Sequence record: PZ445454.1
Reading direction: 5' to 3' (one strand)
DNA: 64,000 nt
DNA from: a phage
In this document: positions 53,073 to 55,287 of the stretch, piece by piece
Numbering within the stretch: the stretch's first letter is position 1
Layout of the letters: every line of letters begins with the position of its first letter
The notes under the pieces: generated by a model
What the model saw: only the letters and a program-made list of their open reading frames with translations
What the model was told of the DNA's origin: nothing
Database searches by the model: none
Made by a program: the position numbers and the translations under genes

Positions 53073-53537
53073 TTACTTTGGATATACGCTGTCAAGATAA
53101 ATGTCAGCTTCCATTCTACGTCTGTTTTTCAGACCGTTTGAAGTGACCTTCTTACCTTTGACTGTAACCTTGTTCCACCACTGCATAGCTTCTGCACAAC
53201 CTACCTTATTACCAGCATTGTGGCGCTTGATAAATGTAGAATCCTGCATAGCCGTGATACCGATGTTGTATGTTTCACTTACAAGTGCATCGAACTCATT
53301 CTGAGAAGTTGGAACCTTGATAGATTTGTTCACTGCTGCGACAAACTTTTCAACATCTGCAAGAAGATACTGTTCAGCCTGTTCAGCAGTAATTTTCATA
53401 CCCATCTTAACAGGTTTTCCGTCAATACGGATTGTACCATACCCGATTGTTGGGATTCCGGCAGAGTCTTCGTAAGCCTCTAACTTAAGACCTTCAAAGA
53501 ACTTAATGGCTTCTAAACCTTTTCTTGAGAGTTGCAT
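53073..53537 (-). CDS. lysozyme (GH24, T4 e / lambda R type endolysin)
   Basis: 154 aa; catalytic-region motif FEGLKLEAYEDSAGIPTIGYGT. Confidence 0.8.
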   Translation of the reverse strand: MQLSRKGLEAIKFFEGLKLEAYEDSAGIPTIGYGTIRIDGKPVKMGMKITAEQAEQYLLADVEKFVAAVNKSIKVPTSQNEFDALVSETYNIGITAMQDSTFIKRHNAGNKVGCAEAMQWWNKVTVKGKKVTSNGLKNRRRMEADIYLDSVYPK

Positions 53538-54919
53538 TATTCACCTCCTGCTGGATTAACTGTAACTGTTGCCGCATTAGACGTTACCGAACCACCTGCA
53601 CCAGTTACTACACAAGTGTAGCTTCCTGCATCAGCAGCGGTTGCACCTTCTTTGGTGTAAGTTGCAGTAGTTGCGTCTGGGATGTTTTCCTCACCCTTCT
53701 TCCACTGGTAGCCTGTTGCACCTGTTGCCACAACATTCAGCGTTAAGGTCTCACCTTCAGTGATTTCTTGATTGGTTGGCTGTTGAGTGATTACAGGAAG
53801 AGCATTCACAGTTACTACAGCAGCGTCAGAGACTACATCTCCACCTGCGCCAGTTACCGTGCATTTGTAAGACCCAGCATCAGCAGGTGTTACACCAGCT
53901 TTGGTAAAGGTTGCAGATTTTGCTTCCTCAATACTTACGTTATCTTTGCTCCACTGGTAGCCTGTTGCTCCAGTTGCAACGATGTTAAGAGTAAGTGTGC
54001 CACCCTCATTTACTGTTTTTGCAGTTGGCTGTTGAGTGATTACAGGAAGAGCATTCACAGTAACTGTCGCTGCACTAGATGTGACTGAACCACCCGCACC
54101 AGTTACTACACAGGTATATGAGCCTGCATCTGTTGGTAGTGCGCCAGACTTGCTATAGGTAGCTTCTGTAGCTGAAGGGATGTCAGAGCCATCTTTCTTC
54201 CATTGGTAACCTGTTGCACCCGTTGCAGTAACCTCCAAGTTGATATTTCCACCCTCATTGATGGTCTGACTAGAAGGTTGCTGTGTAATCACGGGTAGCG
54301 CATTAACAGTAACTGTTGCCGCATCTGATGTAACACTTGTCCCTGCCTCTCCAGATACAACACAAGTGTATGAACCAGCGTCAGAAGGCACTACAGATTG
54401 TTTTGTATAAGTTGCAGAAGTGGCACTGGAGATGTCCTCACCGCCCTTCTTCCACTGATACCCAGTGGCGTTAGTTGCAATAACGCTTAGGGTAAGCGTG
54501 CCACCCTCATTAACTGTTTGGTTTGTCGGTTGCTGAGTAATTGCTGGTGGCTTAATAGCATCCTTCAGCTTAGCATTCAACATTGAGAACGGCTTAACTC
54601 TTGCCAACCATTCACAATAAACTGTATCAACGTCTTTACCATTGATAATTGCATATTGTAAATCCATGAAGAAGTCAGAAGTTCTCATCTGAGCACCGAT
54701 ACTGTAAAGCAAATCATCACTGAAAGGAACTTTGTAGTCTGGTTTGTAGTCAAACTTCTCAACCTCTGCGATATCAGCTTCAGGCCAATATGAACTATAG
54801 GTAAGTGGTAAAATAGCCTCTTGATATGTTCTAAAATCATATCTCTTACCAGCCTTTACATTTGCAATGAAGCCCTTTACAAATTCTTTGAAGTCTGGAT
54901 AAGTCTTTGCTTTAATCAT
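53537..54919 (-). CDS. protein with four tandem Ig-like repeats (Hoc-like decoration or adhesin candidate)
   Basis: 460 aa; N-terminal ~190 aa domain then four ~80 aa repeats (PVITQQPTNQ...GATGYQWKK...AGSYTCVVTGAGG...VTVN). Confidence 0.7.
   Translation of the reverse strand: MIKAKTYPDFKEFVKGFIANVKAGKRYDFRTYQEAILPLTYSSYWPEADIAEVEKFDYKPDYKVPFSDDLLYSIGAQMRTSDFFMDLQYAIINGKDVDTVYCEWLARVKPFSMLNAKLKDAIKPPAITQQPTNQTVNEGGTLTLSVIATNATGYQWKKGGEDISSATSATYTKQSVVPSDAGSYTCVVSGEAGTSVTSDAATVTVNALPVITQQPSSQTINEGGNINLEVTATGATGYQWKKDGSDIPSATEATYSKSGALPTDAGSYTCVVTGAGGSVTSSAATVTVNALPVITQQPTAKTVNEGGTLTLNIVATGATGYQWSKDNVSIEEAKSATFTKAGVTPADAGSYKCTVTGAGGDVVSDAAVVTVNALPVITQQPTNQEITEGETLTLNVVATGATGYQWKKGEENIPDATTATYTKEGATAADAGSYTCVVTGAGGSVTSNAATVTVNPAGGE
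53560..54540. repeat. four tandem ~240 bp coding repeats (the Ig-like domains of 53537..54919)
   Basis: Repeat visible at DNA and protein level. Confidence 0.75.
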
Positions 54920-55287
54920 TTCTTTTTAGCCTCTAAACGTGCGTTTAATCTGAAATAGCCTTTATGTTGTGGAGATACATCACCAACAACAATACCTTCA
55001 ACTTTATAACCCTTACCAATTACATACTGGATATCCATAAGAAACGTACCAAGCCCAACAATGTGGAACATTGGGTATAGTAACTTATCTGAATCTGGGA
55101 GTTTAATGTCTGGGTTATAGGTAGGTTGCTCGGCAGTTGGTGTAATATCCTCTTCAGGCCATCTACTCATTCTCCATGTTAAAGGTGATGAAATAACATC
55201 GTTAAGATTGTATTTTTCACCATTCTCCACGGAGCGGATATAGGATTGTAGGAAGCAATAAAAGTCTTTTGCACTCTTAGCCTTCAT
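54916..55287 (-). CDS. paralogue of the N-terminal domain of the Ig-like repeat protein
   Basis: 123 aa; aligns by eye with residues 1-120 of the 460 aa protein (KAK..DF..F...YI..V..G.RY, WPE.DI, LLY, FFMDLQYAI). Confidence 0.6.
   Translation of the reverse strand: MKAKSAKDFYCFLQSYIRSVENGEKYNLNDVISSPLTWRMSRWPEEDITPTAEQPTYNPDIKLPDSDKLLYPMFHIVGLGTFLMDIQYVIGKGYKVEGIVVGDVSPQHKGYFRLNARLEAKKK

What the first reader, a model, noticed from the sequence alone, without database searches (positions are those of the whole stretch)
53537..55287. Ig-like repeat protein with a duplicated N-terminal domain as a separate gene
The 460 aa protein carries four ~80 aa Ig-like repeats, a feature of capsid decoration or adhesin proteins. 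The adjacent 123 aa gene is a paralogue of its N-terminal domain alone. This suggests domain duplication and modular exchange in a virion-surface protein next to the endolysin.
Basis: seen in the sequence. Interest (0 to 1): 0.5.

Follow-up and report, generated by a model that had tools for sequence, protein, structure and literature searches.

The report
Hoc-like capsid decoration gene plus paralogue
The large gene encodes an already solved capsid decoration protein of a Felix O1-like phage (an anchor domain plus four Ig domains), and the small gene in front of it is an old, conserved copy of the anchor domain alone, whose role is unknown and which the two structure papers I read do not mention.

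Summary
ORF 53537-54919 (-) has a 120-aa N-terminal domain and four Ig repeats of 83-86 aa. ORF 54916-55287 (-) is a full-length paralogue of that N-terminal domain (36% identity, E 5e-18).

The large protein is already known. It is 100% identical to PDB 9ncf chain S, the "Hex-Dec" hexamer-centre decoration protein of Felixounavirus Bas63. Its homologue is Sf14 gp20 (9c2d_S). Variation between one and four Ig domains is also published.

The anchor-only paralogue is not mentioned in either structure paper. It arose by an old tandem duplication and is present in about 232 of 252 related phage records. It is under purifying selection (dN/dS 0.13; C-terminal half 0.07). Its stop overlaps the Hex-Dec start (ATGA), and Felix O1 RT-PCR shows both genes peaking late. 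Its predicted fold matches the solved anchor (TM 0.75-0.79).

However, the Felix O1 and VpaE1 virion proteome lists do not include it, and it was not modelled in either cryo-EM structure. Gly replaces the capsid-contacting Arg79, and Arg107 is Gln/His in the sampled Felixounavirus, Mooglevirus and Suspvirus relatives. In one subclade it is a pseudogene.

My best reading is a dispensable, non-virion accessory factor, possibly a transient hexamer binder like P4 Sid relative to Psu. That function is inferred, not shown. Interest is modest.

The parts
54916..55287 (-). 123-aa stand-alone paralogue of the Hex-Dec capsid-binding domain (phrog_4463; Felix O1 gp37, Sf14 FDI99_gp021, VpaE1 ORF40c)
   Evidence: ORF. 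BLASTP to the anchor domain: 36% identity, E 5e-18. PDB hits 9ncf_S E 1e-12 and 9c2d_S E 2.4e-11. AF2 model pLDDT 79.8, TM 0.75-0.79 to the solved anchors. dN/dS 0.13 overall; 0.18 for the N-terminal half and 0.07 for the C-terminal half.
53537..54919 (-). 460-aa Hex-Dec: Hoc-like decoration protein that sits at capsid hexamer centres
   Evidence: 100% identical over 460 aa to PDB 9ncf_S (Bas63 capsid). 556 bits to 9c2d_S (Sf14 gp20). phrog_3995 E 6e-240.
54560..54919 (-). Capsid-binding domain (CapBD), aa 1-120 of Hex-Dec. It contains Arg79 and Arg107, which in Sf14 gp20 salt-bridge to Asp221 of the major capsid protein.
   Evidence: Domain limits from PMC11821841 (N-terminal 118 aa) and PMC12609058. 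Arg79 and Arg107 read directly from the translation. dN/dS 0.04.
54296..54547 (-). Ig-like repeat 1 (aa 125-208)
   Evidence: Pfam Ig_3 / I-set. Boundaries and identities.
54047..54295 (-). Ig-like repeat 2 (aa 209-291)
53798..54046 (-). Ig-like repeat 3 (aa 292-374). This is the repeat missing from the common 3-Ig forms.
   Evidence: The 3-Ig protein of AYO145A matches Bas63 Ig1, Ig2 and Ig4 at 90-92% identity, and none of its repeats matches Ig3.
53540..53797 (-). Ig-like repeat 4 plus the short C-terminal tail (aa 375-460)
53073..53537 (-). Endolysin (glycoside hydrolase family 24 lysozyme). Third gene of the unit; its start codon overlaps the Hex-Dec stop by 1 nt.
   Evidence: Pfam Phage_lysozyme E 1e-40 and phrog_7. 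Coordinates.
55311..55326 (-). Conserved GC-rich hairpin between the upstream 196-aa gene and the paralogue (equivalent to terminator t38 of Felix O1). A conserved TAAGGA Shine-Dalgarno sequence follows it.
   Evidence: Terminator-like hit. The stem is kept through compensatory changes across relatives. Felix O1 Table 2 lists t38 at the corresponding place.
53046..53063 (-). Strong intrinsic terminator after the endolysin (GGCTCC-TTCG-GGAGCC followed by a T run). It closes the three-gene unit.
   Evidence: The same element is annotated in AYO145A and as Felix O1 t35.

Best explanation
The window comes from a Felixounavirus, almost certainly Bas63 (Escherichia phage JohannRWettstein) or a near-identical phage.

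Gene 53537-54919 encodes Hex-Dec. This monomeric decoration protein plugs its 120-aa N-terminal domain into the centre of the 60 pentamer-proximal (quasi-threefold) hexamers of the T=9 capsid. It projects a flexible string of four Ig-like domains outward, as T4 Hoc does. This part is shown by published cryo-EM.

Gene 54916-55287 is an ancient tandem duplicate of the anchor domain only. It keeps the fold and the hydrophobic core, and it is made late together with Hex-Dec: same transcription unit, ATGA stop/start overlap. It has diverged on the face that contacts the capsid in Hex-Dec. Arg79 is Gly in every paralogue. Arg107 is Gln or His in the sampled Felixounavirus, Mooglevirus and Suspvirus relatives (it is Arg in one divergent metagenomic lineage). 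The segment GAQMRTSD has become the hydrophobic MFHIVGLG. Mean pI is 7.8 instead of 5.5.

Its C-terminal half, which corresponds to the capsid-facing part of the anchor, is as constrained as the anchor itself. The protein has not been reported in virions, and one viable subclade has lost it.

My inference is that it is a non-essential, non-virion accessory protein that still uses the old binding face on a conserved partner. The most likely partner is the capsid hexamer in a state or place that Hex-Dec does not occupy, for example the unexpanded procapsid. It would act transiently during head assembly, much as P4 Sid relates to its paralogue Psu.

Shown: identity of Hex-Dec, paralogy, selection, co-expression, loss in one clade. 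Inferred: non-virion status and the transient capsid-binding role.
For: Identity: 460/460 aa identical to 9ncf_S and 556 bits to 9c2d_S. The Bas63 and Sf14 papers describe the binding site, the anchor domain and the 1-4 Ig variation.

Paralogy and fold.

Age of the duplication: the pair is present in Felixounavirus, Mooglevirus and Suspvirus relatives and in a divergent 87-kb metagenomic contig. There the orthologues share 47% (paralogue) and 59% (anchor) identity with the window, while the two copies share 31%. The paralogue clade has 100% bootstrap support. More distant syntenic lineages have a single anchor gene.

Selection: dN/dS is 0.13 for the paralogue, 0.04 for the anchor, 0.14 for Ig1 and 0.08 for the lysin. 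The paralogue C-terminal half is 0.067. In 38 columns each family is fixed on a different residue; in 34 both are fixed on the same residue.

Capsid-contact residues: Arg79 and Arg107 are invariant in the sampled Hex-Dec proteins, including the L031 homologue. They are Gly and Gln/His in the sampled Felixounavirus/Mooglevirus/Suspvirus paralogues.

Co-expression: the ATGA overlap with an upstream GAGG is conserved in 26 of the 28 sampled loci that have both genes. Felix O1 RT-PCR puts ORFs 36 and 37 together in the late (60 min) class.

Absence from virions: the Felix O1 shotgun proteome lists gp36 at 44% coverage and proteins as small as 9.7 kDa, but not gp37. The VpaE1 text reports 22 virion proteins. 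Counting the Felix O1 counterparts plus gp54, gp58 and gp68 accounts for all 22 without ORF40c, although the table itself (S2) was not available to me. Bas63 and Sf14 cryo-EM report no density on the other hexamers.

Dispensability: mio, Z31, REP9 and P54 share a remnant with a lost start codon and a 220-bp deletion.

Precedent: P4 Sid and Psu are paralogues; Sid binds procapsid hexamers and Psu replaces it on mature capsids (PMC11718236).
Against: No experiment addresses the paralogue directly.

The proteomic absences are weak negatives. The Felix O1 list is cut at 25% coverage. The VpaE1 table was read only through the main text. The Sf14 table lists only proteins placed in the structure.

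A monomer on the 20 true threefold hexamers would be blurred by icosahedral averaging.

Phages without the gene have an essentially unchanged Hex-Dec anchor, so any assembly role is not obligatory.

The Arg79/Arg107 argument rests on one paper's description of contacts. The distant single-copy anchors do not all keep Arg at those columns, and the L031 paralogue has Arg at the 107 position.

The Sid/Psu parallel is an analogy only; there is no sequence or fold relationship.
Confidence: 0.55

Rival explanations
1. The paralogue is a third, so far overlooked decoration protein. It would occupy the centres of the 20 true threefold hexamers that Hex-Dec cannot bind, and so complete the coverage of hexamer centres.
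For: It has the same fold as the anchor. It lacks exactly the Arg residues whose Asp221 partners are shifted away in true threefold hexamers according to the Sf14 paper. It is expressed late and is translationally coupled to Hex-Dec. Its capsid-facing half is strongly constrained. A monomer on a threefold axis would be smeared in icosahedral maps.
Against: Both cryo-EM studies state that there is no density on the other hexamers, and Sf14 also has a 4.5 A asymmetric map. It is not among the listed virion proteins of Felix O1 or VpaE1, although smaller and lower-copy proteins were detected. It is pseudogenised in a viable subclade.
Confidence: 0.1
2. The paralogue is a cytoplasmic partner or chaperone of Hex-Dec. 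It would pair with the pseudo-twofold anchor domain and keep the sticky Ig-bearing protein soluble, or hold it back until capsids have expanded.
For: The conserved ATGA coupling gives near-stoichiometric co-synthesis. The conserved hydrophobic patch MFHIVGLG, replacing polar capsid-contact residues, looks like a protein-protein interface. The protein has not been reported in virions.
Against: Phages that lost the gene keep an unchanged Hex-Dec anchor and 2-Ig proteins. The more distant lineages carry anchor-plus-Ig proteins with no partner gene. There is no evidence that the two proteins interact.
Confidence: 0.15
3. The paralogue has been recruited to a task unrelated to the capsid, for example binding a host or rival-phage protein, much as P4 Psu also inhibits Rho. 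The anchor fold would serve only as a scaffold.
For: Charge and surface have changed markedly: pI 7.8 against 5.5, and 38 columns fixed on different residues. The protein is non-virion and dispensable in the laboratory, as accessory or counter-defence genes typically are. The Psu precedent shows a decoration-type protein with a second cellular target.
Against: Late timing and coupling to a structural gene are unusual for host-takeover or anti-defence genes. There is no similarity to any other family: only 13 clusters among 1.84 billion representatives, and all of those whose context was examined are anchor genes in the same syntenic slot.
Confidence: 0.12
4. The small ORF is a decaying leftover of a duplication and has no function of its own.
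For: It has been lost or pseudogenised in about 20 of 252 records. It evolves about three times faster than the anchor.
Against: dN/dS is 0.13 overall and 0.07 in the C-terminal half over dS of about 0.8. Length is kept at 122-124 aa, and the Shine-Dalgarno sequence and ATGA coupling are conserved, across three genera and a 47%-identical lineage. Where it is truly non-functional it has visibly decayed.
Confidence: 0.04

Closest known systems
Bas63 Hex-Dec (PDB 9ncf chain S; Sci Adv 2025, PMC12609058)
   Same: The 460-aa protein is identical in sequence: N-terminal capsid-binding domain with two pseudo-symmetric lobes, then four Ig-like domains. It binds as a monomer in the centre of the facet-edge hexamers.
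   Different: Nothing differs for the large protein. The paper contains no mention of paralogy and no reference to the upstream 123-aa gene. It states that Bas63 alone among the 18 ICTV species has four Ig domains. Four-Ig forms also exist in IMG/VR contigs L013 and L016 with a different third repeat, and apparently in several GenBank phages.
Sf14 gp20 (PDB 9c2d chain S) and its neighbour FDI99_gp021 (Mooglevirus; PMC11821841)
   Same: The gene order is the same: small gene, decoration gene, endolysin. gp20 has the same anchor, with Arg79 and Arg107 contacting Asp221 of the major capsid protein. gp021 is 75% identical to the window's paralogue.
   Different: gp20 has three Ig domains that are only about 60-69% identical to those here. 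gp021 is annotated as hypothetical and is not discussed in the paper or its supplement.
T4 Hoc
   Same: A monomeric, non-essential decoration protein at hexamer centres: a small globular capsid-binding domain plus a string of Ig-like domains of variable number. Proposed roles are adhesion and aggregation. PHROG 'Hoc-like' families hit the Ig part.
   Different: The domain order is reversed (the Hoc anchor is C-terminal). According to the Bas63 paper the anchor is smaller and topologically different. The sequence similarity is confined to the Ig domains. I know of no anchor-only paralogue next to hoc (from memory, not tested).
T5 pb10
   Same: [quoted passage not shown] Its Ig domain is detectably similar (5lxk_A E 2.8e-11).
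   Different: It has one Ig domain, and its anchor is unrelated: the PDB hit covers only the Ig region. It binds all 120 hexamers.
P4 Psu / Sid
   Same: Two paralogous proteins of one phage element that both bind capsid hexamers. One (Psu) is a stable decoration of the mature capsid. The other (Sid) is bound only to procapsids and is absent from virions (PMC11718236). This is the functional pattern I propose for Hex-Dec and its paralogue.
   Different: There is no sequence or fold relationship. Sid and Psu act as dimers across hexamers, and Sid determines capsid size. There is no evidence that the 123-aa protein binds procapsids. The parallel is an analogy only.

Membership tests
Ounavirinae Hex-Dec / Sf14 gp20 decoration proteins (phrog_3995) | N-terminal capsid-binding domain of about 118-120 aa, homologous to the solved anchors | tested here: met
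   460-aa protein: 100% identity to 9ncf_S and 556 bits to 9c2d_S. 123-aa protein: E 1e-12 and 2.4e-11 to the same chains, covering residues 2-119; TM 0.75-0.79.
Ounavirinae Hex-Dec / Sf14 gp20 decoration proteins (phrog_3995) | C-terminal string of Ig-like display domains | tested here: met
   This applies to the 460-aa protein, which has four Ig_3 / I-set stretches. The 123-aa paralogue does NOT meet it: it ends 3-4 residues after the anchor and has no Pfam hit.
Ounavirinae Hex-Dec / Sf14 gp20 decoration proteins (phrog_3995) | Arg79 and Arg107, which salt-bridge to Asp221 of the major capsid protein (Sf14 paper) | tested here: met
   This applies to the 460-aa protein; both are invariant in the sampled Hex-Dec anchors, including the L031 homologue. 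The paralogue does NOT meet it: Gly at the Arg79 column in all paralogues; Gln/His at the Arg107 column in the sampled Felixounavirus, Mooglevirus and Suspvirus relatives, and Arg only in the divergent L031 lineage.
Ounavirinae Hex-Dec / Sf14 gp20 decoration proteins (phrog_3995) | Presence in purified virions, at hexamer centres | not testable with these tools
   The literature shows it for the large protein (Felix O1 gp36 at 44% coverage, Sf14 gp20 detected by MS, cryo-EM density). For the paralogue the literature is negative: it is not in the Felix O1 or VpaE1 lists and is not modelled in either structure. No targeted test exists.
T4 Hoc family | C-terminal Hoc-type capsid-binding domain preceded by the Ig-like domains | tested here: not met
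   Here the order is anchor first, then Ig. No PDB sequence hit of the anchor region to T4 Hoc was listed. The Bas63 paper calls the anchor larger and topologically distinct. The protein works like Hoc but is not a member by its anchor.
Immunoglobulin-like I-set / Ig_3 domains (Pfam PF07679, PF13927) | Score above the Pfam gathering threshold for each repeat | tested here: met
   Ig_3 144.7 bits (cut-off 30), four stretches. I-set 115.9 bits (cut-off 23.7), four stretches.
Transient procapsid-binding paralogue of a decoration protein (P4 Sid type) | Binds capsid-protein hexamers of the procapsid and is absent from the mature virion | not testable with these tools
   Only the second half has indirect support, from the published virion protein lists. 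Binding to procapsids is untested.

The most novel reading that the evidence does not exclude
The 123-aa protein is a Sid-like counterpart of Hex-Dec. This anchor-only paralogue would cap capsid hexamer centres transiently, either on the unexpanded procapsid or on the threefold hexamers, and would then be released or replaced when the head matures. It would be a second, independently evolved case, in a virulent myovirus, of a pair formed by a decoration protein and an assembly-stage paralogue. It would also give a natural stand-alone hexamer-binding module.
Probability: 0.25. Interest if true: 0.55.

Novelty: new variant of a known kind. Interest (0 to 1): 0.3.

Why it matters
The main protein needs no further discovery: its structure, location and Ig-number variation are published.

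The paralogue adds a small but concrete point. The capsid-binding module of this decoration family also exists as a separately maintained, co-expressed gene in most Felix O1-like phages, and the structural papers did not pick this up.

If it binds capsids at some stage, it would reveal an unrecognised step in head assembly or decoration of a phage group widely used for Salmonella and E. coli typing, biocontrol and therapy. It would also provide a minimal natural anchor for capsid display, as T5 pb10 and T4 Hoc have done. If it does not bind capsids, it is an example of a structural domain recruited to another job.

Either way the question can be answered with one knock-out and one targeted proteomics run. 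Natural pseudogene-bearing phages (mio, REP9, P54) already exist as controls.

Tried and rejected
1. Programmed -1 frameshift fusing the paralogue to Hex-Dec. The sequence T-AAA-AAG lies just before the ATGA overlap, and the Hex-Dec frame is -1. I rejected this because the slippery run is not conserved in the Mooglevirus- and Suspvirus-type relatives (GCTAAGAAATGA, GCTAATAAATGA), one lineage has a different frame relation, and no paralogue peptides were reported from virions.

2. A shared late-promoter motif. The conserved CTATTTATAAGG between the hairpin and the Shine-Dalgarno sequence is not enriched in the window: 14 matches with up to 2 mismatches against 8.2 +/- 2.7 expected. The sigma-70-type scan finds nothing upstream of the paralogue.

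3. Tandem Repeats Finder on the Ig region. It finds no array, because the repeats are only 61-68% identical at DNA level.

4. First AlphaFold2 run with a shallow 15-sequence alignment. It gave pLDDT 57.5 and was unreliable, although it still hit the right PDB chains weakly. Adding the distant single-copy anchors raised pLDDT to 79.8.

5. Word-indexed protein searches with either domain. They returned only close relatives of that same domain and never bridged the two families. The exhaustive profile search was needed, and even that found just 13 clusters.

6. The Sf14 supplement and the stored VpaE1 supplement. Neither holds a full list of MS-detected proteins, so absence of the paralogue could be read only from main-text statements.

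7. Deep branching order of paralogue, anchor and single-copy anchors. It is unresolved in the NJ tree (supports of 52-58%), and some printed supports are rooting artefacts. I claim only the 100%-supported paralogue clade.
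Full report
1. WHAT IS IN THE SEQUENCE

An endolysin follows at 53073-53537.

The stop of the small gene overlaps the start of the large one by 4 nt (ATGA). The stop of the large gene overlaps the endolysin start by 1 nt.

A GC-rich hairpin lies upstream of the small gene (55326-55311), and a strong intrinsic terminator follows the endolysin (53063-53046). Together they bracket the three genes.

Pfam finds four Ig-type stretches in the large protein (Ig_3 E 1.2e-42). It finds nothing in the small protein.

The four repeats are aa 125-208, 209-291, 292-374 and 375-460. They are 64-72% identical in protein and 61-68% in DNA, which explains why Tandem Repeats Finder sees no array.

The small protein aligns end to end with residues 1-119 of the large one at 36% identity, E 5e-18.

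2. THE LARGE PROTEIN IS ALREADY KNOWN

The region is 88-95% identical in DNA to about 250 Felix O1-like phages of Escherichia, Salmonella, Shigella and Citrobacter.

The 460-aa protein is 100% identical over its full length to PDB 9ncf chain S, from the icosahedral capsid of phage JohannRWettstein (Bas63). It scores 556 bits against 9c2d chain S, which is Sf14 gp20. This is one of the most variable structural proteins of the genus, so the window is almost certainly Bas63 or a near-identical phage. Bas63 itself appears to be absent from the phage collection searched; the best DNA hit there is 94.9%.

The Bas63 paper (PMC12609058) calls the protein Hex-Dec. It describes:
- binding as a monomer in the centre of hexamers at the facet edges only;
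- four predicted Ig-like domains that were not resolved;
- a gene lying more than 10 kb from the structural module;
- usual mis-annotation as "tail protein";
- variation between one and four Ig domains across the genus.

The Sf14 paper (PMC11821841) adds that the anchor is the N-terminal 118 aa. It reports that Arg79 and Arg107 salt-bridge to Asp221 of three of the six capsid subunits. It proposes that displacement of these Asp residues in the true threefold hexamers explains why those 20 hexamers stay empty.

Felix O1 whole-virion mass spectrometry found the homologue gp36 at 44% coverage (PMC3185647).

My own comparison of 29 relatives reproduces the length classes: 210, 294, 372-377 and 460-461 aa.
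- The 3-Ig form is Ig1-Ig2-Ig4.
- The 2-Ig form is Ig1-Ig4.
- The 1-Ig form is an Ig1/Ig4 hybrid. This is what in-register recombination between repeats would give.
- Two IMG/VR contigs (L013, L016) also have four Ig domains, but with a different third repeat.

Four Ig domains are therefore not unique to Bas63. That is a small correction to the paper's statement, which covered only the 18 ICTV species.

3. THE SMALL GENE IS A REAL, OLD, SELECTED PARALOGUE OF THE ANCHOR DOMAIN

Neither structure paper mentions it. There is no occurrence of "paralog", and none of Sf14 gp21 as a neighbour of gp20. A full-text search found no other paper on it. PHROGs files it as phrog_4463, function unknown.

Distribution. 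tblastn finds it in about 232 of 252 related phage records, always directly upstream of Hex-Dec. This includes Mooglevirus (Sf14 FDI99_gp021, 75% identity) and Suspvirus.

A more divergent 87-kb metagenomic contig (L031) has the same arrangement of small gene, decoration gene and lysozyme. There the small protein is 47% identical to the window's, the anchor is 59% identical, and the two copies share 31%. The two copies have therefore evolved separately, without gene conversion, since before these lineages split. The paralogue clade has 100% bootstrap support.

Breadth of the family. An exhaustive profile search of 1.84 billion representative proteins found only 13 clusters. The distant members sit in the same syntenic slot: a 185-207-aa gene, then the anchor gene, then lysozyme. 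They have no second copy. They carry a Big_2 domain, one I-set Ig, a Big-like domain, an unknown beta-rich region, or just a Lys-rich tail on the anchor. The anchor is thus a lineage-restricted module with exchangeable display domains, and the duplication happened within one branch.

Selection, by Nei-Gojobori over 340-418 sequence pairs with dS of about 0.6-1.0:

| Region | dN/dS |
|---|---|
| Paralogue, whole | 0.13 |
| Paralogue, N-terminal half | 0.18 |
| Paralogue, C-terminal half | 0.067 |
| Hex-Dec anchor | 0.04 |
| Ig1 | 0.14 |
| Endolysin | 0.08 |

Length (122-124 aa), the TAAGGA Shine-Dalgarno sequence and the ATGA overlap with its upstream GAGG are conserved.

Fold. With a 20-sequence alignment that includes the distant anchors, AlphaFold2 gives pLDDT 79.8. 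Foldseek against the PDB returns only 9c2d_S (TM 0.77-0.79) and 9ncf_S (TM 0.75-0.76) as significant.

4. HOW THE PARALOGUE DIFFERS FROM THE ANCHOR

In 34 alignment columns both families are fixed on the same residue. These are mostly core positions: F9, F12, the W-P-E-x-D-I motif, L-L-Y, M-D-x-Q-Y and L-N-A. In 38 columns each family is fixed on a different residue.

The capsid-contact residues of the Sf14 description are among the latter. Arg79 is Gly in every paralogue. Arg107 is Gln or His in the sampled Felixounavirus, Mooglevirus and Suspvirus relatives, and Arg only in the L031 lineage.

The polar stretch GAQMRTSD of the anchor is MFHIVGLG in the paralogue. Mean pI is 7.8 against 5.5.

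The C-terminal half carries these changed positions, yet it is the most constrained part of the paralogue. This suggests that the old binding face is still used, but on something different or on a different state of the same partner. That is an inference.

5. EXPRESSION, VIRION CONTENT AND DISPENSABILITY

Felix O1 RT-PCR places ORFs 36 (Hex-Dec) and 37 (paralogue) together among genes with maximal expression at 60 min. Tail and portal genes are in the same class, whereas the lysin (35) and ORF38 peak at 25 min.

The Felix O1 shotgun proteome lists 17 virion proteins, some as small as 9.7 kDa, but not gp37.

For VpaE1, CsCl-purified virions were searched against all ORFs longer than 50 codons. 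The text reports 22 virion proteins. Counting the Felix O1 counterparts (20 minus gp23) plus gp54, gp58 and gp68 gives exactly 22, which leaves no room for ORF40c, the paralogue. This arithmetic is my own reading; Table S2 was not available to me.

The Bas63 and Sf14 maps show no density on the remaining hexamers. These are negative results with limited power, but they all point the same way.

Four Felixounaviruses (mio, Z31, REP9, P54) represent about 20 records. They carry the same remnant in place of the gene: start codon lost, a 220-bp internal deletion and small frameshifts. Their Hex-Dec anchor is unchanged. The gene is therefore dispensable for a viable phage, and where it is not needed it visibly decays.

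6. MOST LIKELY MECHANISM

Shown, for Hex-Dec: the anchor plugs into quasi-threefold hexamer centres, and the Ig string projects outward. The authors propose a Hoc-like function in adhesion or aggregation; this has not been tested.

Inferred, for the paralogue: it is a late, co-translated, non-virion and non-essential protein with the anchor fold and a remodelled but constrained binding face.

I consider a transient interaction with the capsid lattice during head assembly the single most likely role (about 0.25-0.3). This could be on the unexpanded procapsid, or on hexamers that Hex-Dec does not take.

A documented precedent for this pattern is P4. There the decoration protein Psu and its distant paralogue Sid both bind hexamers, Sid binds only procapsids, and Psu replaces it on mature capsids (PMC11718236). 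This is an analogy only; the proteins are unrelated.

Rival readings:
- A third decoration protein on the 20 threefold hexamers (0.10). Two cryo-EM studies and two proteome lists argue against it.
- A cytoplasmic partner or chaperone of Hex-Dec (0.15). It is weakened by phages that do without it.
- A capsid-unrelated, Psu-like second job (0.12).
- A functionless relic (0.04). The selection data contradict it.

The remaining probability is "something else".

7. COMPARISON, NOVELTY AND VERDICT

The large protein is a member of the Ounavirinae Hex-Dec / gp20 family, and in fact the type example. It works like T4 Hoc and T5 pb10, but it is not a Hoc-family member by its anchor: the domain order is reversed and the topology is different.

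The small protein belongs to the same anchor-domain family by sequence and fold. It fails the family's other features: it has no display domain, it lacks Arg79 (and Arg107 in most lineages), and it has not been reported in virions. I therefore file it as a variant, not as a decoration protein.

Overall this is an ordinary, already solved structural gene with one unreported and cheaply testable footnote. Interest 0.3.

Noticed in passing
window 53540-54547 (Ig repeats): After the two phage chains, the best PDB sequence match of the Ig repeats is the Aureispira grappling-hook protein GhpA (9flp_A, 279 bits, 15 matched stretches). That is well above the eukaryotic Ig proteins, so these phage Ig domains are closest to a bacterial surface-filament repeat.
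   Followed up: no
window 56545-58412 (+) and 58577-63556 (+): A DUF5681 protein (123 aa) and a 471-aa DUF2828/DUF7788 vWA-type protein, annotated elsewhere as 'RNA-binding protein', are transcribed divergently from the decoration operon. They lie immediately upstream of an array of 25 tRNA genes. The DUF5681-DUF2828 pair is syntenic even in the distant lineages L033 and L040.
   Followed up: partly
window 55311-55326 (-): The hairpin upstream of the paralogue keeps its stem through compensatory changes among relatives (GGGGCTAACGCCCC, GGGGCGAAAGCCCC, GGGGCATCAGCCCC). Its T tail is weak, so it may be more than a simple terminator of the upstream gene.
   Followed up: partly
L003:3307-3497, L042, L043, L044 (phages mio, Z31, REP9, P54): These phages share one pseudogene remnant of the paralogue: lost ATG, a 220-bp deletion and frameshifts. 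In Z31 the Hex-Dec gene is additionally split into 134-aa and 55-aa CDSs, which looks like a natural near-null for both genes.
   Followed up: yes
P0049 / P0090 (Shigella phage vB_SflM_004): In this phage the paralogue is 114 aa with an internal deletion, and the 'tail protein' is an 82-aa fragment. Either both genes are degraded or the assembly has errors.
   Followed up: no
L013 and L016 (IMG/VR contigs); GenBank hits KEP3, ZX4221, Shy, SME50, LNA1, PK6, MET-P1-301: Four-Ig Hex-Dec proteins (461 aa in L013 and L016) exist outside Bas63. In L013 the third repeat is only 66% identical to that of Bas63, which suggests independent gain of the fourth domain. The GenBank phages listed match the full 3-kb query in one piece, so they probably also carry four Ig domains; I did not translate them.
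   Followed up: partly
L044 (PV390658.1, vB_EcoM_P54) and the 'Staphylococcus phage SA1' hits: P54 carries a Tequatrovirus taxonomy line, and one record is named as a Staphylococcus phage. Both are Felix O1-like at this locus, so they are probably database mislabels.
   Followed up: no
window 55335-55925 (-): The upstream 196-aa protein (phrog_4034, unknown function, no Pfam hit) keeps its position directly before the anchor gene in every lineage examined, including the distant ones (183-207 aa). It may belong functionally with the decoration/lysis unit.
   Followed up: no
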